A program made the position numbers and the translations under genes. A DNA stretch of 64,000 nucleotides, from contig DAOOTD010000001.1 of NCBI GenBank assembly GCA_035390125.1, positions 116,003 to 180,002 on the forward strand, given 5' to 3'. Below are positions 7,139-55,907 of this stretch, piece after piece (the first letter of the stretch is position 1; each line of letters opens with the position of its first letter). The stretch is from Candidatus Moraniibacteriota bacterium. GTDB lineage: Bacteria > Patescibacteriota > Minisyncoccia > Moranbacterales > GWC2-37-73. Below the pieces are notes generated by a model. It was given only the letters and a program-made list of their open reading frames with translations. It searched no databases and was not told where the DNA came from.

Positions 7139-7960
7139 TTATTTAGTTATAGGGTATCCTTTTTCTTCCCATTTCGGCATTGCACCTTTCAGGACAAAAG
7201 GAGAAACCAAAAGCATGTCATACATCTTTACGGATGATTGAAATTCATGAAGTTCGCTTATTCCGACAACCACAACCCTTTTCTCTTTAATTTCCCGGCG
7301 TCTTTTTTCCAGATCATCAGAGGGGATGTTTATTGCTCCGGGAATATGCCCTTTAGAATATTCCTCAGCCGTCCTTACATCGATAATGAACATAGGAACA
7401 TTCTGCTTGAGAGCCTCATTTAATTTTTCTGGCTCAACATAATAAACCTTAGATTGATCTACGAATGAGGTCGGGTCGCCGTAGGTTACTGTTGTTCCTC
7501 CGGTCTGTTTCCATAAAAGCATACCTCCAAGTAAAACCAAATAATCTTTGAAATTTTCTTTTTTCAGTTCGTCAACCGTCTTTTTGATGTTTTCGTCATT
7601 TTCTTCGGCACCGATGACAATAACCTGCTTGTGCAAATCAATTTTTGAATTCAAAGGAAACTCATCGGGAGTGATGTTTATGGAATCTACGATATGCTCC
7701 CTGGCATAAGAATCAAAAGATCTTACGTCGAGCAATACAAGGGGAGTATCTTCTTTAGAGAGAAGCATTTTTTTGTTCAAGTCTTTGACATTAATTGTCG
7801 GATAGTCAGGTTTGGAATAGCTTTGTCCGCTTAAATTCAAATCATTTGAAGAGTCTTTGTTTTCAAATAAATTGCTGCGGAACAAAGTAATAAGTATGAC
7901 AATAAGAATCAGAAAGAAACCTAAAGTTATGACAATTTTTTCTTTTTTTTCGTTGATCAT
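7139..7960 (-). CDS. Membrane-anchored tandem rhodanese-like domain protein (both domains lack the catalytic Cys)
   Basis: Two rhodanese-like segments (LLDVRSFDSYAREHI and IIDVRTAEEYSKGHIPGAINIP). The active-site loop positions read VIVIGAEEND and VVVVGISELH with no Cys. Confidence 0.65.
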   Translation of the reverse strand: MINEKKEKIVITLGFFLILIVILITLFRSNLFENKDSSNDLNLSGQSYSKPDYPTINVKDLNKKMLLSKEDTPLVLLDVRSFDSYAREHIVDSINITPDEFPLNSKIDLHKQVIVIGAEENDENIKKTVDELKKENFKDYLVLLGGMLLWKQTGGTTVTYGDPTSFVDQSKVYYVEPEKLNEALKQNVPMFIIDVRTAEEYSKGHIPGAINIPSDDLEKRRREIKEKRVVVVGISELHEFQSSVKMYDMLLVSPFVLKGAMPKWEEKGYPITK

Positions 7961-18748: not shown

Positions 18749-19453
18749 ATGGCCAAGAAGCAACTGTTACCATTTATAAAAAACGAAGACTTATATAAAC
18801 ATGTAAAAATGGTTTTAAATGTTGCAAAAAACGCAACAAATAATGCTGAAAAAAAAATTTATAGTAATGTCATAGATCCATTCTCTGCATTATTTGATGC
18901 ATCAAATCAAAACATATCATTATCTGAATGGATAAAACAAGAAAAATCGAGACAAACACAGAAAACACTCCAAAATGCTATAGGTGAATTTCATCAAAAT
19001 ATATTGGGGTCAATGTCTGGATGGGAAAATTTAAAAACTGGTTCAGTTTCAGATCTTTCTAATAAAAATAAAAAAATAATTGCCGAAGTAAAAAATAAAT
19101 ATAATACAACGAAAGGTAATCACAAGACGGCAATTTATGATGACTTCAAAAAATTACTTAAAAAAGATTACAAAGGATACGAAGCGTATTACGTAGAGAT
19201 TATACCTAAAGGACGAAATGTTTATAATAAGCCTTTTACACCTCCAGATAATCGAACGGGGAAAAGAAGACCAAAAAATATAAAAATCAAAATAATTGAT
19301 GGTAAAACTTTCTATGATTTAGCTAGCGGCTATCCTGAATCTCTAAAGCAATTATATTTAGCTCTTCCAACTGCAATTAGTAATGTATTGGGAAAAAAGG
19401 TAAATAAAGTAAAATCTAATGAATTCGTAGCTCTTTTCAAAAAAGCTTACTAA
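18749..19453 (+). CDS. Putative type II restriction endonuclease (partner of the adjacent m5C MTase)
   Basis: Sits immediately upstream of and co-directional with a C5 MTase. Candidate PD-(D/E)XK-like spacing SD...(12)...EVK. No family recognised by eye. Confidence 0.35.
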   Translation: MAKKQLLPFIKNEDLYKHVKMVLNVAKNATNNAEKKIYSNVIDPFSALFDASNQNISLSEWIKQEKSRQTQKTLQNAIGEFHQNILGSMSGWENLKTGSVSDLSNKNKKIIAEVKNKYNTTKGNHKTAIYDDFKKLLKKDYKGYEAYYVEIIPKGRNVYNKPFTPPDNRTGKRRPKNIKIKIIDGKTFYDLASGYPESLKQLYLALPTAISNVLGKKVNKVKSNEFVALFKKAY

Positions 19454-19469
19454 GAAACTATAAATTAAT

Positions 19470-19515
19470 AACCCTTGCATAATGCAAGGGTTATTTGTTA
19501 TAATAGAACTATAAC
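19470..19515 (+). promoter_or_regulatory. Hairpin (AACCCTTGCA-TAA-TGCAAGGGTT) plus palindrome GTTATAATAGAACTATAAC upstream of the MTase gene
   Basis: Read from the sequence. The palindrome is a candidate operator for the MTase N-terminal HTH domain. Confidence 0.45.
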
Positions 19516-19533
19516 AAATAATGAAAACAAAAA

Positions 19534-20775
19534 ATGGATCAAACAATGACAATTTCTGATGCAGCTATTCAATTGGGTGTTTCAGCAGACACAATAAGAC
19601 GATGGGACAAAAAAGGTCTCATTAAGGCTGATCGTTCAGACTTAAATTATCGCCTATTTAATATCGAAGAAATAAAGCGCATTTACAATAAGGTTTCAGG
19701 GACTTTTACTGCGAATAATTATAAAATACTTAAAGATAATAAAAAAACTAAATATACAACGATAGAACTTTTTGCAGGAACTGGTGGTACTGCTATTGGT
19801 TTTGAAAATGCAGGATTAAATCATGTATTGCTTAATGAATGGGATAAAGATGCAGTCGAAACTCTTAAAATCAATAAACCAAAATGGAATGTAATTGGTG
19901 GTGATATTGCGAACGTAGATTTTAAAGGAATTAAAGCGGACATAGTTCAGGGAGGGTTCCCTTGTCAAACATTTAGTTATGCTGGGAAAAAAATGGGTTT
20001 TGAAGACACAAGAGGAACGATGTTTTTTGAGTTTGCGCGATGCGTGAAAGAAGTTAAACCAAAAATTGCAGTTGGTGAAAATGTAAGAGGATTGCTCAGG
20101 CATGATAATGGTAAGACACTTAGTACGATGGTAAAAATAATGAAGGATCTTGGATATAAAGTGCAATACAGAGTTGTTCGATCACAATATTTAGATGTTC
20201 CTCAAAAAAGAGAGCGACTTATTATTATTGCCATTAGAAATGATTTGAAAATTCCGTTTATTTTTCCAAAAGAAAAAGATTACACAATTTCAATAAAAGA
20301 AGCCTTAAAAAATTGTCCGAAATCAGCAGGGCAAGAATATCCAGAAAAAAAGAAAAAAATACTGTCTCTTATTCCGCCCGGAGGATATTGGAGAGATTTA
20401 CCCGTAAAATTACAGAAGGAATATATGGGAGCAAGTTTTTATATGGGAGGTGGAAAAACTGGTATGGCGAGAAGATTATCATGGGATGAACCAAGTCTAA
20501 CACTTACTTGTAGCCCAGCACAAAAACAAACAGAAAGATGCCATCCTAAAGAAACACGTCCATTGACTGTTAGAGAATATGCGCGCATACAAACTTTTCC
20601 AGATAGCTGGAAATTTCAAGGATCAACTTCCTCACAATATAAACAAATAGGAAATGCGGTTCCATGCAATCTCGGTTATCATATAGGAAAATGTTTAATT
20701 GCGATGCTTGAAAATAAACCAGATTTAAAAACAATGGAAATTGTTTATCCAAGTAGTCAGAAGAGTTTATTTTAA
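19534..20775 (+). CDS. DNA (cytosine-5)-methyltransferase with N-terminal MerR-like HTH domain
   Basis: N-terminus ISDAAIQLGVSADTIRRWDKKGLI is a MerR-type HTH. Catalytic FPCQTFSYAGK (PCQ, motif IV), ENV (motif VI) and C-terminal QIGNAVP. Confidence 0.85.
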   Translation: MDQTMTISDAAIQLGVSADTIRRWDKKGLIKADRSDLNYRLFNIEEIKRIYNKVSGTFTANNYKILKDNKKTKYTTIELFAGTGGTAIGFENAGLNHVLLNEWDKDAVETLKINKPKWNVIGGDIANVDFKGIKADIVQGGFPCQTFSYAGKKMGFEDTRGTMFFEFARCVKEVKPKIAVGENVRGLLRHDNGKTLSTMVKIMKDLGYKVQYRVVRSQYLDVPQKRERLIIIAIRNDLKIPFIFPKEKDYTISIKEALKNCPKSAGQEYPEKKKKILSLIPPGGYWRDLPVKLQKEYMGASFYMGGGKTGMARRLSWDEPSLTLTCSPAQKQTERCHPKETRPLTVREYARIQTFPDSWKFQGSTSSQYKQIGNAVPCNLGYHIGKCLIAMLENKPDLKTMEIVYPSSQKSLF

Positions 20776-30241: not shown

Positions 30242-32437
30242 ATGGATATTTTAGGAATCAGGATTGATAATTTTTCCAAAAAAGAAATTCTTGAAAAAAT
30301 AGAATTATTTTTGAGTGACGGAAAATTCCATCAGATTGCAACTGTAAATCCAGAATTCATACTGGAAACACAAAAAGATGAAGAATTTAAAAATATTTTA
30401 AATTCTTGTGATCTTAATATTGGAGATGGGATAGGAATCAAGTTTGCTTTTTTAAGATTCGGAAAATGGCTGAAAGAAAGAATGCCAGGAGCTGACTTGA
30501 TGCATGAAATTTTGAAAATTGCGGATGAAAAAAATTTTTCGGTATTTTTGGCCGTAAACAAGAACGGACTAAGTTCCTATAAAGAAGTAAAAAGTGCTTT
30601 AAGTTTGAAATACCCTAATGTACAATTTTTCGGAGATGATATTGATCCACGAAGTGTTGGTTATAAACTTCTAAATTCGGATAGTAATTTATTTTTTTGC
30701 AATTTCGGGGCTCCAGAGCAGGAAAAGTTTATTAATTCTCTGAAAAATGATATAATCGGATTGGCCATAGGAATAGGTGGCAGTTTTGATTTTATCACCG
30801 GAAAAGTGAAGCGTGCCCCAAAAATAATGCAAAATCTTGGCTTAGAATGGCTTTGGAGGCTCATTTTACAGCCAAAAAGAATAAAAAGAATAATCAATGC
30901 CGTTGTAATTTTTCCGGTAAAAATATTATTTTCCAAACAAATGAAAAGTTCAGAAAAAAAAGTAAGAGTACGTTTCGCACCGTCGCCGACCGGCTATATG
31001 CATGTCGGCAATTTCCGTACTGCGCTTTATGCCTATCTTTTTGCTAAAAAAAATAAAGGCGATTTTATTCTGAGGATTGAAGATACGGACCAAAAAAGAT
31101 ATGTCCAGGATGCTTTAGAAAAACTTATTGATATTATAAATTGGGCAGGCTTTGAATATTCTGAAGGAGTTTTTATTGAAAATGGAAAAGTTTTGCAGAA
31201 AGGGGATTTCGGGCCATATGTGCAATCGGAACGTCTGGATATATATAAAAAATATGCCGACGAACTTGTTGAAAGTGGCAAGGCTTATCATTGTTTCTGC
31301 ACGCCGGAAAAACTTGAACAGATGAGGAATGAACAGATAGCCAGCAAACAAGCCCCGATGTATAACAAGTGTTGCCTGAAATTAAGCGTTGAAGAAACTG
31401 CCAAAAGAATCGAACAAGGAGAAAAATATGTCATCCGCCAAAAAATAAACACGGAGGGATTTACGGAATATGAAGATTTAATCCGCGGAAAAGTAAAAAT
31501 AAAAAATGATTTATTGGATGACCAAGTGCTTCTTAAATCGGACGGTTATCCGACTTATAATTTTGCCAATGTCATCGATGATCATCTGATGGGGATTACT
31601 CATGTTATCCGTGGCGAGGAATATGTCTCCAGTACTCCAAAATATGTTCAATTGTACCAAAATTTTGGCTGGGAAATTCCTGAATTTGCACATTTACCGT
31701 TGCTTTTGAATTCTGACAAATCCAAACTTTCCAAACGGCAGGGGGATGTGTCGGTGGAAGATTATATCAGCAAAGGATATCTTAAAGAAGCAATCATTAA
31801 TTTCGTAGCACTCTTGGGATGGAATCCAGGGGAGGGAAGTGTGCAGGAAATTTTTTCAATACAAGAATTGATTGATAAATTCGAGCTTGGAAAAGTCCAT
31901 AAAGCCGGAGCGATTTTTGACCTGAAAAAATTAGACTGGATCAATGCGCAATATATTAAAAAAATGAGTGATGAAGATCTATATAAAAATGCACTGCGAT
32001 TTTTTGAGAAGAAGGATTTTTATACTAATGCTCAGCAAGAAAAAAAATCAGCAGAGTATTTGAAAAAAGTTCTGACAGTAGAAAAAGACAGACTCATAAA
32101 ATTTTCAGATGTCGGAGAGGAGAATAAATTTTTCTTTCAGGATATTTCGTGCAATAAAGAGATGCTGCGCTGGAAATCAATTACCGATGAGGAGATTAAA
32201 AATTCACTGGAAACTTCGGAAAAAGTCCTGGCTGGAATTTCCGGCGAGAACTGGAATTTGAAAAATTTAGAAGAGAAGCTGCTGGAAGCTGCAGGAGAAA
32301 AACGAGGGGATTTATTGTGGCCCCTTAGAGTAGCTCTAACGGGAGAAAAAAAATCACCCTCACCATTTGAAGTTGCTTGGGTGATTGGCAAAAAAGAAAC
32401 ATTAAAACGCATCAATCAGGCCTTGGGATTAATATAA
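30242..32437 (+). CDS. gltX: In-frame fusion of WecB/TagA/CpsF-family glycosyltransferase (GT26) and glutamyl-tRNA synthetase
   Basis: Residues 1-235 are GT26 (ends ...GLEWLWRLILQPKRIKRI). From MKSSEKKVRVRFAPSPTGYMHVGN (HIGH-type motif) onward it is a full GluRS, with KLSKR (KMSKS). No stop separates the two in this sequence. Confidence 0.7.
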   Translation: MDILGIRIDNFSKKEILEKIELFLSDGKFHQIATVNPEFILETQKDEEFKNILNSCDLNIGDGIGIKFAFLRFGKWLKERMPGADLMHEILKIADEKNFSVFLAVNKNGLSSYKEVKSALSLKYPNVQFFGDDIDPRSVGYKLLNSDSNLFFCNFGAPEQEKFINSLKNDIIGLAIGIGGSFDFITGKVKRAPKIMQNLGLEWLWRLILQPKRIKRIINAVVIFPVKILFSKQMKSSEKKVRVRFAPSPTGYMHVGNFRTALYAYLFAKKNKGDFILRIEDTDQKRYVQDALEKLIDIINWAGFEYSEGVFIENGKVLQKGDFGPYVQSERLDIYKKYADELVESGKAYHCFCTPEKLEQMRNEQIASKQAPMYNKCCLKLSVEETAKRIEQGEKYVIRQKINTEGFTEYEDLIRGKVKIKNDLLDDQVLLKSDGYPTYNFANVIDDHLMGITHVIRGEEYVSSTPKYVQLYQNFGWEIPEFAHLPLLLNSDKSKLSKRQGDVSVEDYISKGYLKEAIINFVALLGWNPGEGSVQEIFSIQELIDKFELGKVHKAGAIFDLKKLDWINAQYIKKMSDEDLYKNALRFFEKKDFYTNAQQEKKSAEYLKKVLTVEKDRLIKFSDVGEENKFFFQDISCNKEMLRWKSITDEEIKNSLETSEKVLAGISGENWNLKNLEEKLLEAAGEKRGDLLWPLRVALTGEKKSPSPFEVAWVIGKKETLKRINQALGLI

Positions 32438-32454
32438 GTTTAAAAGTGCAGATG

Positions 32455-33771
32455 AATATAAAAATAAAAAACAGCTTTACGGATAAAATTAAATTTCTCA
32501 TGGGAGCAATGTTGTTTTTTGCTGCCTTTTTAATTTTTTGCGGGGTCAAAGCTGAGAGCATAAACAATATTTCAGGTACAGGCTCTCTTTCTGCAGATGA
32601 CAAAGAAGAACTAAAAGAACTAGATGAAAAAGCCGAGACCTACAGAAAGATTATTGAGATCAAGCAAAAACAAGGAGAGACATTAAGCAACCAGATATCT
32701 ATAACAGATGCCAGTATAGGGCAGATAGAAAATCAGATGAAAATGATTTCAAAACAAATCGAAGATTTAAACGACCAAATAATAAGAATACAGAAAGAGA
32801 TAAAAGAAAATGAAGCTATGATTGAAGGGAATAAAGAATTGCTCGGTCAGATCATGCAGGTTTATTATGAATCAAGCAACACAAGTCCTTTTTTCACGTA
32901 CCTTTCCGGCGGAAATCTGAAATCTTTTATGGTAAAAGAAGACAGGATTTCACAGACAGGAGATAAAATAAAGGAGCTGATTGATATAATCAAAAAAATC
33001 AAGGAGGATCTGAATGAAGAAAACAATCAGCTTGATCAGAAAAAAAGTGAATTTTTGAGCAAGAATCAAGAATTGCAGGAAAAAAATGATGATTTGAATT
33101 CGATAAAAGATCAAAAACAGAGTCTTCTGAGTGAAACTCAAGGCGAAGAACAGCGTTATCAGAAGCTTTTGGCTAAGATTGAAGCACAAAAGAATGAATT
33201 GTTAAACATAGATGATTATTTTTCCGCCAGCGGACTTAGTGCAGATTCATATCCCAAACCTGATTCAAAATACTTTGCTTCAACCAGCTGGTATTATTCA
33301 CAATGGGACAGTAGATGGGGCAATAAAAACATAGGAAATACAAGAACTAAGATGAAAAATTACGGATGTGCAGTGACTTCTGTAGCCATGGTTTTCACTG
33401 AACATGGAGGTTCCATAACACCTGGATATCTTGCCAGTAAGCCCATATTTTATGGCGATCTTATAAACTGGCCAAGTTCATGGTCAAGTCCTAAAGTATC
33501 CTTAATTTCCAGCAAGTCTCATGGAAATGTAAGTTGGTCAACTATTGATAGCCAGATCAAAAAGGGTAATCCTGTCATTGTATATATTAAAAAAAGCAAC
33601 GGCAGTCAGGGACATTATGTTGTGATTCACCATAAGGACGCAGCAGGGAAGTATGTGGTTCATGATCCATACTTTGGAGCCAATATATTCTTGGATACTT
33701 CAAGAGCTTTGGTGGGTGCCTTAGGTTCTTCCAGTAAAACTTCAATAGATCAGATGATAATATATAATTAA
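32455..33771 (+). CDS. Secreted coiled-coil protein with C-terminal C39-like (papain-fold) peptidase domain
   Basis: The ATG at 32455 gives a signal peptide (the track ORF at 32377 overlaps gltX). Long coiled coil. YGCAVTSVAMV and GHYVVIH resemble the Cys/His of Peptidase_C39-like domains. Confidence 0.55.
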   Translation, partial: NIKIKNSFTDKIKFLMGAMLFFAAFLIFCGVKAESINNISGTGSLSADDKEELKELDEKAETYRKIIEIKQKQGETLSNQISITDASIGQIENQMKMISKQIEDLNDQIIRIQKEIKENEAMIEGNKELLGQIMQVYYESSNTSPFFTYLSGGNLKSFMVKEDRISQTGDKIKELIDIIKKIKEDLNEENNQLDQKKSEFLSKNQELQEKNDDLNSIKDQKQSLLSETQGEEQRYQKLLAKIEAQKNELLNIDDYFSASGLSADSYPKPDSKYFASTSWYYSQWDSRWGNKNIGNTRTKMKNYGCAVTSVAMVFTEHGGSITPGYLASKPIFYGDLINWPSSWSSPKVSLISSKSHGNVSWSTIDSQIKKGNPVIVYIKKSNGSQGHYVVIHHKDAAGKYVVHDPYFGANIFLDTSRALVGALGSSSKTSIDQMIIYN

Positions 33772-34446
33772 TTTTACTTGAATCACCTATTAAAGGTTGT
33801 GCGACATAATATAATAGGTTATAAAAAAGGGAAGAATATATAGTTCTATAGCTATAAGGCAATATAAAATAAATATCTTATAAATTATTTTTAAAAGCAG
33901 CTCTTCCCTACTGATTCAGATTTTTTTAAGGTCTGATTTTTTTATTTTTTATTTCTGAAAATATTTTTTTATTTTTTTTATTTTTTTAAAAATATTTTTA
34001 AAATAATGGAAATCGGGAATACATAGACATATCTCCTGTTAGCCATTTTTGCTTCTGCCTGGTTTGAGTAGTTTTTTGGATAGGTAGATGTATGCCTCAG
34101 TGTATTCAAAATAGGTAAAGTTTTTAGAAAGAGGCAATTTCTGAAAGAAATGGGTACAAAGGAGTATACATATATGTATCTAAGAGTTGCTTGAAATTAA
34201 AAATTAAAAAATAAAAAGGTTTGGACATATGTAGATATATAGGAAACAGAGAGAAATAAGAAAAAATATTTTTATAATTTTAATTTCTGGAAAATGTAAA
34301 AAGGCTATTTAGTAAAGAGTAAAGCGGTTAAAAGGATTACTAGAGGGGTTTATATTTAGATATAATGTCGCAAAAGATATATTGTGCGACGTAGTATACA
34401 TACAAAGAAAGGCCATTTTTCTGCCAAATGACCATTGTTCCCTAAT
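33772..34446. other. 675-bp ORF-free AT-rich convergent intergenic region with homopolymer tracts and repeated TTGTGCGAC / ACATA motifs
   Basis: No ORF of 60 aa or more on either strand. T/A tracts at 33930-34010. TTGTGCGAC at 33799 and 34385. Palindromes ATACATATATGTAT and GTCGCA-n10-TGCGAC. Confidence 0.5.
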
Positions 34447-34860
34447 TTATAGATCCATTTTAAAAACTCCGGTATTATAAATTTCAAATCCCATATTTTT
34501 GTATAAATTTCTGGCTGTTATCCTTTTGGGATTGCTGGTTAAATTTATTTTTTTTACTTTTTTATTTTTTGCTATGGCTATAAGTTCTTTTGTAAGCCTT
34601 TTCCCATGCCCCTTCCCCCTCCAGGCAGAGTCTATGACAACATCTTCTATTCTTGCCACATAACCCTCACAAGGAACTTGATGGACTATCAATGATCCGA
34701 AACCTATTACCTGTTTATTTTCTTCAATAACAATACAATTACAGCCCTTGTCTTTTATAAGGGATTTTATGTTTATCTTCGTCTCTTTTCCTGTCAGCTG
34801 GCAGAGAAGTCTTTCAACTCTCTTCTTGTCTTGATGTTTAAGTTTTCTTAATTTTGCCAT
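34447..34860 (-). CDS. GNAT family N-acetyltransferase
   Basis: An internal Met start avoids a 140-nt overlap with iscU. Acetyl-CoA motif AWRGKGHGKRL. Confidence 0.65.
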   Translation of the reverse strand: MAKLRKLKHQDKKRVERLLCQLTGKETKINIKSLIKDKGCNCIVIEENKQVIGFGSLIVHQVPCEGYVARIEDVVIDSAWRGKGHGKRLTKELIAIAKNKKVKKINLTSNPKRITARNLYKNMGFEIYNTGVFKMDL

Positions 34861-41798: not shown

Positions 41799-41871
41799 AC
41801 TATTTTTTAAGTTTATAGCTAATAACTTATAGAAAAATTATAAAAAAGAAATCTTTTATAAGGTTTCTTTT

Positions 41872-42416
41872 TTATAATCTGTTTTTTAAATATTTCATAA
41901 CTTCCATAAAATCATACTTTTTTGTGGACCATTTTTCAGGATTTTTATCGATAGATTTTATAATTTCATCTTGGCTCATCCATTTTACTTCCTGAACTTC
42001 TCCATCATTAAAATTAAATACCTCATCATTTTCTAAAAAGTTATAATAAAAAACATAGCAAAATTCCTTATTATTACCGCCGTCGTATTTTTTTATTTCT
42101 CCTTTTAATAAATATTTTGGATTTATATTAACCCCTACTTCTTCTTGTATTTCACTAACTACCGCTTCTTGTATTTCTTTTCCTGTATTAACATGTCCTC
42201 CAAAACGAGTATCCCATTTGTCAGGATCCTGATCTTTAAGTTTTGACCTTAGGTGTACAAGAATACTAATTTTTTATTTTTTATTTTGTAAAAATACACA
42301 TGAACAGTTCTATGCCATAATCCTTCGACATGTACAACGCTGCGCATTTCTTTTTCTCCAGTTAAGTTTCCATCCTCATTAACTATATCAAGATATTCTC
42401 CTGGTGTAATTGGCAT
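41872..42416 (-). pseudogene. NUDIX hydrolase disrupted by a 1-nt frameshift in a T6 homopolymer (42270-42275)
   Basis: Manual translation gives MPITPGEYLDIVNEDGNLTGEKEMRSVVHVEGLWHRTVHVYFYKIKNKK, then a stop. The +1 frame continues ISILVHLRSKLKDQDPDKWDTRFGGHVNTGKEIQEAVVSEIQEEVGV, which is a Nudix box, and runs to ...MEVMKYLKNRL*. Confidence 0.55.
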
Positions 42417-42430
42417 AATTTGTAAATAAG

Positions 42431-53979: not shown

Positions 53980-54471
53980 TTATTTCCGTCTTCCTATGAA
54001 GAACGCAATTATAATAAAAGCGCCAATCATAGCAAGGACGAAGTAGAATAAATCTACTAATTTCCCCGCTATCTTATTTATCGACCGGCCCTGCTTTATT
54101 ACAGTTCCGGCAGTCGTGTTGTACGCGCCAGTCAGGTTGGATAACCAACCCTCATGTCTGTCTATTTTAACCGACAGATCCTTTAGCTGGCCGTCGACTT
54201 TCGCCTCGATATCGTTGGAAACTTCTTTTTGCGCTTCCAACTCCCCATTTATTCTGGCGAATTGACTATTTGTCGACTTTTTAAGATTAGTGACTTCAGT
54301 TTTCAGCTTTCTGAAGTCAGCAGGCGAAACCTCGGCCTCTGGAGGCGGAGGAGCTTCATATTGCGGACCTGCTATCACCTGGCGCTCTCCGTTAATCGTT
54401 ACGGCTTGTCCCATAGGAACAAACCCCACTACAACTGCAATGGCCACTAAGGCCAGAAAAGTCTTTTTCAT
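53980..54471 (-). CDS. Secreted coiled-coil protein with C-terminal TM anchor
   Basis: N-terminal signal/TM. PPPPEAE linker. C-terminal hydrophobic helix plus RRK. Confidence 0.5.
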   Translation of the reverse strand: MKKTFLALVAIAVVVGFVPMGQAVTINGERQVIAGPQYEAPPPPEAEVSPADFRKLKTEVTNLKKSTNSQFARINGELEAQKEVSNDIEAKVDGQLKDLSVKIDRHEGWLSNLTGAYNTTAGTVIKQGRSINKIAGKLVDLFYFVLAMIGAFIIIAFFIGRRK

Positions 54472-54533
54472 TTTTTCCTCCTCTTTATGTATTGAGTTCG
54501 GGCGAGCTTCCGAAGAAGCTCACCCGGTTAGTG

Positions 54534-55907
54534 TTACAGTTGCGGGACTTTCTCAACCCGCTTCTCCTTCGCAAACCGGTCGGCCGCATCCGGTCCATAA
54601 AGAACATCAATGCAACCTGCCCATAAGAAATAATCTTGGGCAATCAGCCGATCCGCTTCCGCTTGATTGGCACGAATATCATGCCCACGGAAGTAATTGC
54701 GTTCCGCGATCTTAAACTGTTCGATCGCCGAGTTGAGATATCGTTTATCTCCTGTACACTGGTACAGGTCAACATACGCTTCTGCCAACTTGGAGCGCAA
54801 CTGGAGGTTATTTAAGCACCATCTGGTGCACTCTTTGATACGCTGTTTCAACTCTTCAATCCGAGTAAAAATACTGCTCGGATCGCAAGCTTTCACTTGC
54901 GGTGCCGGAGCTGCCGGAGGAGGAACGACCTTAGGCTCAGGTTTCGGCGCCGGAGGCGGAGGGGGCGTACAAACATCAGGTTGGTACCCGACATTCGCAT
55001 ACGCTACCACCTTAACTTGGTATGCCACTTCTGTAAGGGAAAAGGCATTGCCGGTAACGGCTCCTAAAGAGCCTGACCCAGCACCTTTTCCGTCCACGCC
55101 GGAGCCAGTGAAACCGATTCCTAAACTGGAACCGGAATTATGCCTGTCAACCACAGAGTCCCAGTAAATTGCTACGTTAGTGGAACCGGTTTCTTCGACG
55201 GCCTGTAAAACCGTCTTAGCCAATACTTCATCTACTGGCCAGTTCCAGTCGCCAACGCCTTGGTAAACACCCAGTCTCCTAACTGAAGCGTTAGGGGCTA
55301 CATTTATAACTTTAATGATAGTGTTATCATCAATGCGATTATTGATTCGGCTACGTACCGAACCTTTAACTTTTTGAGAAGTCATCGCATTCCATATACT
55401 CCCGCGACCATCCATTAGCCGACCTGAATCGGCCATGGTTTTCAGCTCACCGTAGGTGAATTGGCTATAGTCTGGATCACAGACAACGCCTTTCCAACCC
55501 TTGGGCACTTCGGACGTCGGAGCGCCCACGAAGGCACTCAGTAACGGGGCAACTATGTGATTCGGCGCCTCGTTATTAATCAACATAGAGCTACTGTTAG
55601 CTCTGCTGTCGTTCCTGTTCATGTTCAGGTTGTCGTTCCTGTTCATGTTCAGGTTGTCGTTCCTGTTCATGTTCAGGTTGTCGTTCCTGTTGTTGATATT
55701 ATTTTGGTTATTGAGGTTATTAGCGTTGTTATTGCTAATATCCCCCACATTCGCACTGGCGTCGCCGCCAGTAGCACTGGCATCACCGCCGGTAGCGGTG
55801 GCGCGATTGTCATTCTCGAGTTCAATTTCGATGTCATCTGCGAACGCGAAGTTCGCAGACAGTACCATAATCACCGCGGCCAAAATGGCCAGAGCTTTTT
55901 TCTTCAT
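54534..55907 (-). CDS. Secreted repeat protein, paralog family A (N-terminal ATGGxASATGGxASA module, NRNDNLNM tandem repeats, Pro-rich linkers)
   Basis: Signal peptide. FADDIEIELENDNRATATGGDASATGGDASANVGDI shared with 56251 and 58643. SD AAGGAGGA. Confidence 0.55.
   Translation of the reverse strand: MKKKALAILAAVIMVLSANFAFADDIEIELENDNRATATGGDASATGGDASANVGDISNNNANNLNNQNNINNRNDNLNMNRNDNLNMNRNDNLNMNRNDSRANSSSMLINNEAPNHIVAPLLSAFVGAPTSEVPKGWKGVVCDPDYSQFTYGELKTMADSGRLMDGRGSIWNAMTSQKVKGSVRSRINNRIDDNTIIKVINVAPNASVRRLGVYQGVGDWNWPVDEVLAKTVLQAVEETGSTNVAIYWDSVVDRHNSGSSLGIGFTGSGVDGKGAGSGSLGAVTGNAFSLTEVAYQVKVVAYANVGYQPDVCTPPPPPAPKPEPKVVPPPAAPAPQVKACDPSSIFTRIEELKQRIKECTRWCLNNLQLRSKLAEAYVDLYQCTGDKRYLNSAIEQFKIAERNYFRGHDIRANQAEADRLIAQDYFLWAGCIDVLYGPDAADRFAKEKRVEKVPQL
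55608..55697. repeat. 24-bp tandem repeat x ~3.5 (gtcgttcctgttcatgttcaggtt) encoding (NRNDNLNM)n on the minus strand
   Basis: Read directly from the sequence. Confidence 0.8.

What the first reader, a model, noticed from the sequence alone, without database searches (positions are those of the whole stretch)
33772..34446. 675-bp ORF-free convergent intergenic region with A/T homopolymer tracts, ACATA/palindrome clusters and two TTGTGCGAC copies (dif-like or replication-related?)
In a genome with almost no intergenic space, this is the largest gap without any ORF of 60 codons or more. It contains T/A tracts (33930-34010) resembling a DNA-unwinding element. It has clustered ACATA-containing palindromes (ATACATATATGTAT, ACATATGT). 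TTGTGCGAC occurs at 33799 and 34385. The first copy sits in GGTTGTGCGACATAATATAATAGGTTATAA, which loosely recalls the XerC arm GGTGCGCATAA of dif. The second sits in the hairpin GTCGCA-N10-TGCGAC. Candidate functions are a dif/terminus site, a replication-related locus, a degraded mobile element or an unannotated ncRNA.
Basis: seen in the sequence. Interest (0 to 1): 0.5.

Follow-up and report, generated by a model that had tools for sequence, protein, structure and literature searches.

The report
Terminus dif site with attached module
This gene-free stretch lies where genes of a tiny 'candidate phyla radiation' bacterium converge, probably the replication terminus, and it holds a 28-bp site conserved across that group where a recombinase probably separates joined daughter chromosomes, plus an inherited non-coding insert of unknown role.

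Summary
The gap is real. It separates two converging genes in a Candidatus Moranbacteria (CPR/Patescibacteria) contig. Its right end (34365-34392) reads ATGTCGCAAAA|GATATA|TTGTGCGACGT, two 11-bp inverted arms around a 6-bp centre, which is the layout of a dif site. A pattern taken from it hit at least 120 species genomes, once per retrieved stretch, and nearly all are CPR. Around these sites 86% of coding bases on the left point right and 85% on the right point left. Xer-family recombinase genes lie within about 4 kb (most within 2 kb) in 17 of 120 loci. Inovirus-like elements sit next to the site in viral contigs. I read it as the CPR chromosome-dimer resolution site at the replication terminus. 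It lies where distant relatives carry the whole site. The 557 bp between it and the full site are absent from those relatives and conserved in block pattern in closer ones. They hold no conserved ORF, Rfam match or covariation, but do hold a T-rich tract and repeated ATACAT-NN-ATGTAT palindromes. This is probably an old insertion at dif that is now retained. Its function is unknown. I found no published CPR dif.

The parts
33772..34446 (.). Convergent intergenic region between the C39-like peptidase gene (+) and the GNAT gene (-). It is the point where gene orientation switches in the window.
   Evidence: ORFs and Pfam. Genes at 13-33.7 kb are all on +, and genes at 34.4-64 kb are nearly all on -. 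The raw cumulative GC skew peaks here.
34365..34392 (+). Candidate dif site of 28 bp: left arm ATGTCGCAAAA (34365-34375), centre GATATA (34376-34381), right arm TTGTGCGACGT (34382-34392).
   Evidence: Sequence. The pattern TGTCGYAAAA-N6-TTGTGCGAC hit at least 120 species genomes, once per retrieved stretch, nearly all CPR. Conservation is confined to the 28 bp. The context is convergent in 55 of 66 scorable loci. Xer genes lie nearby in 17 of 120 loci. Inovirus-like elements sit next to the site.
33795..33807 (+). Isolated copy of the right arm (TTGTGCGACAT, 33797-33807) preceded by an invariant GG. The 17 nt to its left (33780-33796) do not resemble a left arm plus centre.
   Evidence: GGTTGTGCGAC is invariant in 24 distinct related sequences. 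It lies 25-111 nt after the C39 stop, where distant relatives carry the whole site. Extra half-sites near the site recur in other CPR lineages.
33808..34364 (.). Non-coding module of 557 bp between the half-site and the full site. It is absent from distant relatives and retained, with conserved blocks, in closer ones.
   Evidence: Alignments A2 and A4. Relatives with a compact layout lack it. It has no conserved ORF, no Rfam match and no covariation.
33921..34003 (+). T-rich tract (66% T, 7% G+C), including a 31-nt unit present twice (33937-33998).
   Evidence: Relatives are AT-rich at the same place, but the sequence itself is not conserved.
34019..34032 (.). Degenerate copy of the palindrome ATACAT-NN-ATGTAT (here ATACATAGACATAT).
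   Evidence: It is a perfect palindrome in relatives L013 and L015.
34078..34096 (.). Block GGATAGGTAGATGTATGCC, carrying a half palindrome. GATAGGTAGATGTAT is identical in the window, L012, L013, L015, L137 and L139.
34166..34179 (.). Perfect 14-nt palindrome ATACATATATGTAT. The arms are conserved in relatives and the central two bases vary.
34223..34248 (.). Fourth, degenerate copy of the palindrome followed by GGAAACA (GGACATATGTAGATATATAGGAAACA).
   Evidence: L015 has ATACATATATGTAT at this position.
34411..34433 (-). Terminator-like hairpin followed by a T run, downstream of the GNAT gene. It is ordinary and not part of the site.

Best explanation
The gap is the point of a Candidatus Moranbacteria (CPR) chromosome where genes converge, most likely the replication terminus.

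The 28 bp at 34365-34392 are the chromosome's dif site. One Xer-family tyrosine recombinase monomer binds each 11-bp arm. Two sites on a chromosome dimer pair up, strands are exchanged across the 6-bp centre, and the dimer is resolved into monomers before division. The layout, the conservation and the genomic placement of the site are shown here. Binding and catalysis are inferred from how dif sites work in other bacteria. The two arms differ at only one or two of eleven positions when one is reverse-complemented, which hints at a single recombinase. That is also an inference.

The rest of the gap is a lineage-specific addition. In distant Moranbacteria the whole site lies 8-130 nt after the C39 gene. 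In the window's clade that position holds only a right-arm copy (33797-33807), and the full site lies 430-940 bp further on, beyond a non-coding module. The most likely origin is an insertion at dif of the kind made by mobile elements that use the host Xer enzyme. The insert has since been inherited vertically and kept under selection. Its repeated palindromes, and the lone arm, are most simply read as protein-binding sites. What they do is not known.
For: Site layout:
- Arms of 11 nt around a 6-nt centre.
- By my own alignment to the E. coli dif sequence recalled from memory, 17 of 28 positions match. Accepted archaeal dif sites match the bacterial consensus at 14-18 of 28 (PMC2958812).

Distribution:
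Each retrieved stretch holds one match.
- The genomes span Saccharibacteria, Paceibacteria, Moran-, Nomura-, Campbell-, Kaiser-, Portnoy-, Yonath-, Curtiss-, Shapiro-, Berkel- and Pacebacteria. Only 3 hits are high-GC genomes outside the CPR.
- Conservation falls to background within 2 nt of the 28 bp.

Placement:
- The 3-kb strand balance is convergent in 55 of 66 scorable loci and divergent in 1.
- Summed over 117 loci, 86% of coding bases left of the site are on + and 85% right of it are on -.
- The window shows the same switch.
- In the complete genome CP064960.1 the site lies at 48.7% of the length.

Enzyme:
- Recombinases that align end to end with the XerC and XerD models (about 250 bits, below NCBI's naming cut-off of about 330), and in one case with XerA, lie near the site in 17 of 120 loci. 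Most are within 0.3-2 kb and one is about 3-4 kb away.

Use by mobile elements:
- 69 viral contigs carry the site, and there the context is not convergent.
- Only 2 weak integrase matches occur in those loci.
- 19 contigs encode a Zot-like ATPase and 10 a rolling-circle Rep.
- In L273, Zot-like and Rep genes lie between a full site and a dif-like pseudo-site, and the flanks match a Saccharimonas contig in which genes converge on a single site.

Insertion:
- The site follows the C39 gene in about 63 of 80 Moranbacteria loci that were found by protein alone.
- Distant relatives have a compact layout, and closer ones have half-site, module and full site.
- GGTTGTGCGAC is invariant in 24 distinct sequences.
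- No conserved ORF lies in the module.
Against: - No recombinase gene is present in the 64-kb window. Nothing here shows binding or cleavage.
- The terminus call rests on gene orientation. GC skew at third codon positions does not flip in the window. The orientation-corrected skew over 117 loci differs only slightly (+0.031 against -0.003).
- The 48.7% figure assumes that the complete genome starts at dnaA. I did not check this.
- Perfect DnaA boxes are 12 times denser within 700 bp of the site in other CPR lineages. I cannot explain that for a terminus.
- The left-hand pseudo-site has a good right arm and a degenerate left arm. A simple Xer integration should leave a good left arm there, so later decay or a different event has to be assumed.
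- All eight copies of this species' gap are identical, so no polymorphism at strain level is seen.
- No free copy of the module was found.
- Parts of the module (palindromes, the block TCAATTTTGAGCGTCGTTTT) also occur next to dif in Moranbacteria that lack the half-site. This blurs a single-insertion story.
Confidence: 0.78

Rival explanations
1. The module is a working partner of dif rather than a passenger. Its palindromes and the lone arm would bind proteins that either control Xer recombination, as the accessory sequences of the plasmid sites cer and psi do, or arrest the converging forks next to dif, as a fork trap does.
For: - The blocks are conserved across species whose neighbouring C39 protein is only 50-72% identical.
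- The half-site is invariant.
- Palindromes of the same type lie 100-350 bp from dif in Moranbacteria with other layouts.
- They are spaced 61-80 bp apart on one side of the core site.
- Thermococcales dif sites are also flanked by repeats proposed to bind a partner protein (PMC2958812).
Against: - Many Moranbacteria carry dif in a compact 150-250-bp spacer with no module at all, so it is not required for dif to function.
- No candidate binding protein was identified.
- No PepA, ArgR or RTP-type evidence exists. My recollection that the Bacillus Ter core resembles CTATGTAT is a lead from memory, not a test.
Confidence: 0.25
2. The gap encodes a structured non-coding RNA of about 550-600 nt, closed by pairing of copy 1 with the left arm.
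For: - The plus-strand fold is more stable than shuffled sequences (z = -2.6). The minimum-energy fold pairs 33800-33807 with the left arm, and block 34078-96 with block 34160-80.
- The blocks are conserved.
Against: - No Rfam family matches, either at the gathering threshold or at E up to 10 with anything meaningful.
- RNAalifold finds 17 pairs that almost never vary, and the covariation term is unfavourable (+0.47).
- Promoter-like sites are fewer than in shuffled sequence (3 against 6.4).
- The 'helices' are copies of one palindrome, which pair by construction.
- The end sequences equal the arms of a DNA site that is conserved across the CPR.
Confidence: 0.07
3. The locus is a replication origin, chromosomal or from an integrated plasmid or phage: a T-rich unwinding element next to iteron-like repeats.
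For: - It contains the most AT-rich tract of the window, next to 3-4 repeated palindromes.
- DnaA boxes cluster near the same site in other CPR lineages.
Against: - Genes converge on the locus instead of diverging from it.
- No DnaA box with up to 1 mismatch lies in the gap.
- No dnaA, dnaN or rep gene lies nearby.
- No matching module occurs in viral contigs.
Confidence: 0.05
4. The 28-mer is the attachment site of a widespread integrative element that brings its own integrase, not the chromosomal dif.
For: - Tyrosine recombinase genes lie beside it in 17 of 120 loci.
- Mobile elements are found next to it.
Against: - It appears once per retrieved stretch, in distinct assemblies across the whole CPR, and at the convergent switch whether or not any element is present.
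- The adjacent recombinases align end to end with the XerC and XerD models.
- Viral contigs that carry the site almost never encode an integrase nearby.
Confidence: 0.05
5. The interior of the gap is a neutral remnant with no function.
For: - Most of the 557 bp is poorly conserved AT-rich DNA (mean column identity 36% in A4).
- It has no ORF, no RNA family and no DnaA boxes.
Against: - GGTTGTGCGAC is invariant in 24 distinct sequences, and GATAGGTAGATGTAT is identical in six sequences that differ elsewhere.
- The gap keeps a length of 676-783 bp in the three closest related species, in genomes that otherwise have almost no spacer.
Confidence: 0.1

Closest known systems
Bacterial XerCD/dif (E. 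coli dif, Bacillus subtilis dif with CodV/RipX)
   Same: - A 28-bp site with two 11-bp imperfect inverted arms and a 6-bp centre, lying in the terminus region (PMC5357621).
- Here the layout is 11-6-11, each retrieved stretch holds one copy, and the site lies at the convergent gene switch.
- 17 of 28 positions match E. coli dif, by my own alignment to the sequence recalled from memory.
   Different: - The consensus is distinct: rTGTCGyAAAA|GATATA|TTGTGCGACrT.
- The two arms are nearly the same sequence in inverted orientation.
- Whether one or two recombinases act is unknown, and dependence on FtsK is unknown.
- The recombinase gene lies beside the site in some lineages, which is not the E. 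coli arrangement.
Single-recombinase systems: XerS/difSL, XerH/difH, archaeal XerA/dif
   Same: - The sites are nearly symmetrical.
- The recombinase gene lies next to its site, as one module, in XerS and XerH systems (PMC5357621). The same holds in 17 of 120 CPR loci.
- One Moranbacteria neighbour scores best against the XerA model.
   Different: - The centre is 6 bp, against 11 bp in difSL.
- Two of the three neighbouring recombinases tested score about 250 bits against the XerC and XerD models but only 114-127 bits against XerS.
- In most CPR loci, including this window, no xer gene lies nearby.
Integrative mobile elements exploiting Xer (CTXphi, VGJphi, TLCphi, gonococcal genetic island)
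   Same: - Extra DNA sits beside dif, bounded by a dif-like pseudo-site, with no integrase of its own (PMC5357621).
- In CPR, inovirus-like elements with a Zot-like ATPase and a rolling-circle Rep lie between a full site and a pseudo-site (L273).
- The window's module is likewise bounded by a pseudo-site and the full site.
   Different: - The window's module has no genes and is inherited vertically, with conserved blocks.
- It was not found free or in viral contigs.
- Its pseudo-site keeps the arm that a simple integration would not predict.
Accessory sequences of the plasmid Xer sites cer and psi
   Same: A few hundred base pairs of non-coding DNA with protein-binding sites on one side of a Xer core site. 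This description of cer and psi comes from my own knowledge.
   Different: - The site here is chromosomal.
- No PepA, ArgR or ArcA boxes were shown.
- Many relatives manage without the module.

Membership tests
dif site (chromosome dimer resolution site) | [quoted passage not shown] | tested here: met
   ATGTCGCAAAA|GATATA|TTGTGCGACGT at 34365-34392. The same layout is seen in 115 CPR sequences.
dif site (chromosome dimer resolution site) | One copy per chromosome | tested here: inconclusive
   There is one full copy in the 64-kb window and one match per stretch in 120 hits from distinct assemblies. No whole genome could be scanned.
dif site (chromosome dimer resolution site) | [quoted passage not shown] | tested here: met
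   The gene-orientation switch is convergent in the window and in 55 of 66 CPR loci. The strand bias is 86% and 85%. The site lies at 48.7% of one complete genome, with the start at dnaA assumed. GC skew on its own is weak.
dif site (chromosome dimer resolution site) | Conserved among related genomes and similar to the bacterial dif consensus | tested here: met
   It is conserved across many CPR classes. It matches E. coli dif at 17 of 28 positions by my own alignment to the recalled sequence. Accepted archaeal sites match at 14-18 of 28.
dif site (chromosome dimer resolution site) | Bound and recombined by Xer recombinase(s), and needed to resolve dimers | not testable with these tools
   The evidence is only indirect: Xer-family genes beside the site in 17 of 120 loci, and elements without an integrase sitting next to it.
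Integrative mobile element exploiting Xer (for the 557-bp module) | Lies at dif, bounded by dif and a dif-like site, with no integrase of its own | tested here: inconclusive
   The module is bounded by the half-site at 33797-33807 and the full site, and it holds no ORF. However, the pseudo-site has no recognisable left arm or centre.
Integrative mobile element exploiting Xer (for the 557-bp module) | Present or absent among related genomes at the same site | tested here: met
   It is absent from distant Moranbacteria, which carry dif 8-130 nt after the same gene, and present in closer ones. No polymorphism is seen among strains.
Integrative mobile element exploiting Xer (for the 557-bp module) | Carries replication or mobility functions, or exists as a free copy | tested here: not met
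   It has no conserved ORF. Its blocks have no match in viral contigs.
Chromosomal replication origin (oriC) | A cluster of DnaA boxes next to an AT-rich element, with genes diverging from it, usually near dnaA or dnaN | tested here: not met
   The gap has no DnaA box with up to 1 mismatch. Genes converge on it. No dnaA or dnaN lies in the window. Only the AT-rich tract is present.
Structured non-coding RNA | Match to a described family, or covarying base pairs, together with a promoter and terminator | tested here: not met
   There are no Rfam matches and no covariation. Promoter-like sites are below the number expected by chance.

The most novel reading that the evidence does not exclude
CPR bacteria organise their terminus in their own way. 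Under this reading, the dif site comes with lineage-specific sets of protein-binding DNA. In Moranbacteria these are a lone Xer arm plus ATACAT-NN-ATGTAT palindromes. In Saccharibacteria and Paceibacteria they are DnaA boxes in mirror-image orientation on either side of dif. These sites would control Xer recombination or stop the converging forks at dif. The window's 557-bp module would then be a functional accessory region of a chromosomal dif, which has not been described for bacterial chromosomes, and not a relic.
Probability: 0.2. Interest if true: 0.75.

Novelty: new member of a known kind. Interest (0 to 1): 0.55.

Why it matters
- **A marker for the terminus.** CPR bacteria make up a large share of bacterial diversity and almost none are cultured. 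A 28-bp consensus for their dif site would mark the replication terminus in any CPR assembly. That would help in checking genome closure, in orienting contigs, and in anchoring growth-rate estimates that rely on coverage from origin to terminus.
- **A way to find mobile elements.** The site also shows where to look for elements that borrow the host recombinase. Here that includes inovirus-like prophages of Saccharibacteria.
- **An experimental handle.** The site could serve as a defined recombination target in the few Saccharibacteria that can be transformed.
- **Candidates for terminus biology.** The conserved half-site, the palindromes and the mirror-image DnaA boxes are concrete starting points for studying terminus-specific DNA-protein interactions in organisms with very small genomes.

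Tried and rejected
- **RNA families and tRNAs.** Rfam at the gathering threshold on the window and on 16 related loci, Rfam at E up to 10 on the gap, and a tRNA/tmRNA scan found nothing meaningful.
- **Strain comparison.** Eight copies of the gap from different samples are 100% identical, so they carry no information.
- **GC skew as proof of the terminus.** After separating genes by strand, the flip is mostly a coding-strand effect, and third-position skew does not flip. I relied on gene orientation instead.
- **DnaA boxes in the gap.** None were found.
- **Conserved small ORFs inside the inserts.** The only 'families' found are translations of the dif site itself.
- **RNA structure.** RNAalifold gives invariant pairs between two copies of the same palindrome, with no covariation. 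The single-sequence z-scores (-2.6 and -1.65) are explained by the DNA repeats.
- **Free copies of the module.** The block GGATAGGTAGATGTATRCC has no match in viral contigs. No palindrome or TCAATTTTGAGCGTCGTTTT block lies near the site in the 69 viral loci.
- **Bidirectional terminator.** I rejected this reading of the 28-mer. It has no T run, its 'loop' is conserved, and it appears once per stretch.
- **Recombinase next to the site in Saccharibacteria.** I did not find one. The neighbours are an FtsQ-like protein and a VirD4/TrwB-like coupling protein.
- **Literature.** No paper in the library links dif, Xer or chromosome dimer resolution with CPR, Patescibacteria or Saccharibacteria. A text search for TTGTGCGAC listed only unrelated papers among its top hits.
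Full report
**What is in the window.** The stretch 33772-34446 lies between the stop codon of a C39-like peptidase gene on the plus strand (32452-33771) and the stop codon of a GNAT acetyltransferase gene on the minus strand (34447-34860). A terminator-like hairpin follows the GNAT gene at 34411-34433.

- The gap is 26% G+C, against 36% for the window.
- It holds the most AT-rich 80-nt stretch of the whole 64 kb.
The exact TTGTGCGAC copies start at 33797 and 34382.
- The 'hairpin' has 12 bases between GTCGCA and TGCGAC, not 10.
- By a strict ORF criterion the gap is 584 bp, and 41799-42430 is longer.
With it, the right-hand site reads ATGTCGCAAAA | GATATA | TTGTGCGACGT (34365-34392). That is two 11-nt inverted arms around a 6-nt spacer, the core layout of a tyrosine-recombinase site.

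**Source and neighbours.** Identical copies of the flanking genes lie on 278-kb contigs from anaerobic-digester metagenomes, and the gap is 100% identical in all eight copies. Homologues of the C39 protein are labelled Candidatus Moranbacteria / Moraniibacteriota, a CPR lineage.

- No tRNA, tmRNA or Rfam family matches.
- No integrase or xer gene lies in the window.
- Genes at 13-33.7 kb are all on the plus strand, and genes at 34.4-64 kb are almost all on the minus strand.
- The cumulative GC skew of the window peaks at the gap.
- When genes are separated by strand, most of that skew flip follows the coding strand, and third-position skew does not flip. Gene convergence is therefore the reliable signal. 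GC skew is not.

**The right-hand site is conserved across the CPR.** I scanned one genome per species for TGTCGYAAAA-N6-TTGTGCGAC.

- The stretches come from distinct assemblies labelled Saccharibacteria, Paceibacteria, Moraniibacteriota, Nomura-, Campbell-, Kaiser-, Portnoy-, Yonath-, Curtiss-, Shapiro-, Berkel- and Pacebacteria.
- Three hits are high-GC genomes outside the CPR. By my rough estimate, assuming even base composition, about nine hits would be expected by chance.
- Some MAGs labelled Pseudomonadales or Bdellovibrionales have low G+C and the same local layout as Patescibacteria contigs. They are probably mislabelled, but I could not verify this.
- Conservation is confined to the 28 bp and drops to background two bases outside.
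- The centre is GATATA in 47 of 115 sequences, and its third and fourth bases (T, A) are about 90% conserved. The same holds in 61 Moranbacteria sites that were found through the neighbouring protein and not through the motif.
- By my own alignment to the E. coli dif sequence as I recall it (GGTGCGCATAA|TGTATA|TTATGTTAAAT), 17 of 28 positions match. Accepted archaeal dif sites match the bacterial consensus at 14-18 of 28 (PMC2958812).
- Reviews define dif as two 11-bp arms with imperfect dyad symmetry and a 6-bp centre in the terminus region (PMC5357621).

**The site sits where genes converge.** I oriented the 120 loci on the motif.

- The 3-kb strand balance is convergent in 55 of 66 scorable loci and divergent in one.
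- Summed over 117 CPR loci, 86% of coding bases to the left are on the plus strand and 85% to the right are on the minus strand.
- The orientation-corrected GC skew is +0.031 on the left and -0.003 on the right. This is the direction expected at a terminus, but the difference is small.
- In the complete genome CP064960.1 (1,322,297 bp) the site lies at 643,563, or 48.7%. This counts as mid-chromosome only if the record starts at dnaA. The isolate name suggests an assembler that rotates genomes to dnaA, but I did not check.

**The enzyme.** In 17 of the 120 loci a tyrosine recombinase gene lies near the site. Most are 0.3-2 kb away, and the one in L084 is about 3-4 kb away.

- Two of the three tested align end to end with NCBI's XerC and XerD models at about 250 bits. 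That is below the naming cut-off of about 330 and well above their scores for XerS (114 and 127 bits).
- One Moranbacteria example (L082, ending 461 nt from the site) scores best against archaeal XerA.
- A recombinase gene next to its site is a known trait of the single-recombinase systems XerS/difSL and XerH/difH.
- In Saccharibacteria the neighbours are instead an FtsQ-like protein and a roughly 900-residue VirD4/TrwB-like coupling protein.

**Mobile elements use the site.** The same pattern occurs in 69 IMG/VR contigs.

- There the context is co-oriented or divergent (++ 20, -- 8, -+ 8, +- 1). This contrasts sharply with the chromosomal loci.
- Only two weak integrase matches appear in those loci.
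- Nineteen of the contigs encode a homologue of a Zot-like ATPase and ten a rolling-circle Rep of the filamentous-phage G2P type.
- In L273 a full site (2060-2087) is followed by 5.4 kb that carries both genes. Next comes a pseudo-site with the same centre and a perfect right arm, but a degenerate and displaced left arm (about 7491-7519).
- The flanks of L273 match a Saccharimonas MAG contig (L039) in which two genes converge on a single site, although the breakpoints are not simply the two sites.
- This is the pattern of elements such as CTXphi, which integrate at dif using the host Xer enzymes. It is independent support for a Xer recombination site.
- Filamentous phages linked to Patescibacteria have been reported (cited in 10.1101/2024.03.08.584096). 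That paper does not mention Xer or dif sites.

**The rest of the gap.** Relatives with 98%, 72% and 65% identical C39 proteins keep the same gene order and a gap of 676, 783 and 697 bp. The aligned gaps are mostly diverged AT-rich DNA with sharply conserved blocks. The blocks are:

- CCTAyCAAAGGTTGTGCGACAT, which is copy 1;
- the dif site and about 20 nt after it;
- GATAGGTAGATGTAT (34080-34094);
- copies of the palindrome ATACAT-NN-ATGTAT, whose arms are fixed while the middle two bases vary.

I then used a protein-based scan that owes nothing to the DNA motif. It returned 80 Moranbacteria loci with C39 homologues of 41-62% identity.

- The dif site follows the gene in about 63 of them, and every one has a match in the same orientation as in the window. 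The additional minus-strand matches reflect the site's near-palindromy.
- In about twenty of the more distant relatives (41-51% identity) the whole site lies 8-130 nt after the stop. In the 16 of these that I inspected, the next gene follows about 20-260 nt later, and there is no extra half-site or palindrome.
- In closer relatives (about 50% identity or more) that position holds only the right-arm copy, and the full site lies 430-940 bp further on.
- In 24 distinct such sequences GGTTGTGCGAC never varies.
- Other lineages show different contents between the gene and dif. Some have a roughly 200-residue ORF, and others have non-coding DNA with the same palindromes and a block TCAATTTTGAGCGTCGTTTT that occurs in either orientation.

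The left side of dif is therefore a place where DNA has been gained and rearranged. The window's 557 bp (33808-34364) are one such acquisition.

**What the module is not.**

- It holds no conserved ORF. The only shared 'peptides' are translations of dif itself.
- It matches no Rfam family in 16 related loci.
- RNAalifold finds only pairing between two copies of the palindrome. The pairs are invariant and there is no covariation.
- The single-sequence fold is modestly more stable than shuffles (z = -2.6 on plus, -1.65 on minus). Inverted DNA repeats would produce that result.
- The gap has no DnaA box, and promoter-like sites are not in excess.
- The palindrome clusters only here within the window.
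- The module was not found in viral contigs.

**Mechanism, and how sure each step is.**

- Shown: the 28-mer has dif layout, is conserved across the CPR, occurred once in every stretch retrieved, sits at the convergent switch, lies next to Xer-family genes in a minority of lineages, and is accompanied by inovirus-like elements without integrases.
- Inferred: Xer monomers bind the two arms and exchange strands across GATATA to resolve chromosome dimers. The near-identity of the arms suggests one recombinase.
- Shown: the module is absent where distant relatives carry dif, and its blocks and the lone arm are conserved.
- Inferred: it arrived by an insertion at dif, and its palindromes and lone arm bind proteins.
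- Weak point: a simple Xer integration predicts a pseudo-site with a good left arm, but the observed one keeps the right arm. Later decay of the left arm, or a different event, has to be assumed.

**Unexplained.** In other CPR lineages perfect DnaA boxes are 12 times denser within 700 bp of the site than in the rest of the same 8-kb blocks. 24 of 25 are arranged as TGTGGATAA ... dif ... TTATCCACA. This does not occur in Moranbacteria. I know of no such terminus-linked arrangement in model bacteria. It is the main observation that sits awkwardly with a plain terminus reading.

**Novelty.** Five searches of the paper library found nothing that links dif, Xer or chromosome dimer resolution with CPR, Patescibacteria or Saccharibacteria. 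Subscription journals are not covered. The site is a new member of a very well known kind. The attached module, the conserved half-site and the DnaA-box arrangement are the parts that could turn out to be new biology.

Noticed in passing
L017-L136 (genome-contig loci), within 700 bp of the dif-like site; for example L022, L051, L056, L075, L092 (+36 to +72) and L021, L033, L058, L106, L123 (-216 to -231): Perfect DnaA boxes (TTATCCACA) are 12 times denser near the site than in the rest of the same 8-kb blocks. They are strictly mirror-image around it (15 downstream on +, 9 upstream on -, 1 in the other orientation) and sit at offsets that are fixed within each lineage. They are absent from the window's gap and from Moranbacteria loci.
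   Followed up: partly
L273 2060-7519 (IMG/VR contig IMGVR_UViG_3300006564_000119), with relatives L240, L251, L255, L276, L278, L281: An inovirus-like element with a Zot-like ATPase and a G2P-type rolling-circle Rep lies between a full dif-like site and a pseudo-site that has the same centre and right arm. The flanks match a Saccharimonas MAG contig (L039). 19 of 69 viral contigs that carry the site encode the Zot-like protein.
   Followed up: partly
L020, L043, L044, L048, L051, L053, L055, L068, L093, L113, L135, L136 (200-1060 bp upstream of the full site): An extra right-arm half-site (TTGTGCGACAT with up to 1 mismatch), in the same orientation as the full site, recurs upstream of it in unrelated CPR lineages. 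I counted 14 such cases against my rough expectation of about 1.5 by chance, including one that lies inside a xer gene and one hairpin-type copy. In L078, L096, L112, L117 and L121 the left arm instead forms a longer hairpin with a nearby inverted copy.
   Followed up: partly
L140-L165, L188, L196, L200, L210, L214, L216 (100-450 bp upstream of dif, or further in L153 and L188): A 20-nt block, TCAATTTTGAGCGTCGTTTT, is near-identical across diverged Moranbacteria and occurs in either orientation. L188 has both orientations about 530 bp apart. The block is not present in the window.
   Followed up: partly
L034, L040, L115, L071 (right of the site): In Saccharibacteria the gene that converges on the site from the right is a roughly 900-residue VirD4/TrwB-like type IV coupling protein. 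The gene on the left is an FtsQ-like POTRA protein.
   Followed up: no
window 41799-42430: A second large ORF-poor convergent gap (632 bp) lies between a ribosomal protein L27 gene (+) and the CTP synthase gene (-). It has no Rfam or tRNA hit. Only 35- and 55-codon ORFs were called there in the source contig.
   Followed up: no
window 30242-32437: Here the glutamyl-tRNA synthetase is fused to an N-terminal WecG/TagA-type glycosyltransferase domain (731 aa). In relatives L013 and L015 the two are separate adjacent genes.
   Followed up: no
window 18749-20775: A low-GC patch (about 30%) carries an Eco47II-type restriction enzyme gene and a cytosine DNA methylase gene, so it looks like a restriction-modification island.
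   Followed up: no
window 53980-55907: A high-GC patch (48% against 36% for the window) holds 163- and 457-residue ORFs with no Pfam match.
   Followed up: no
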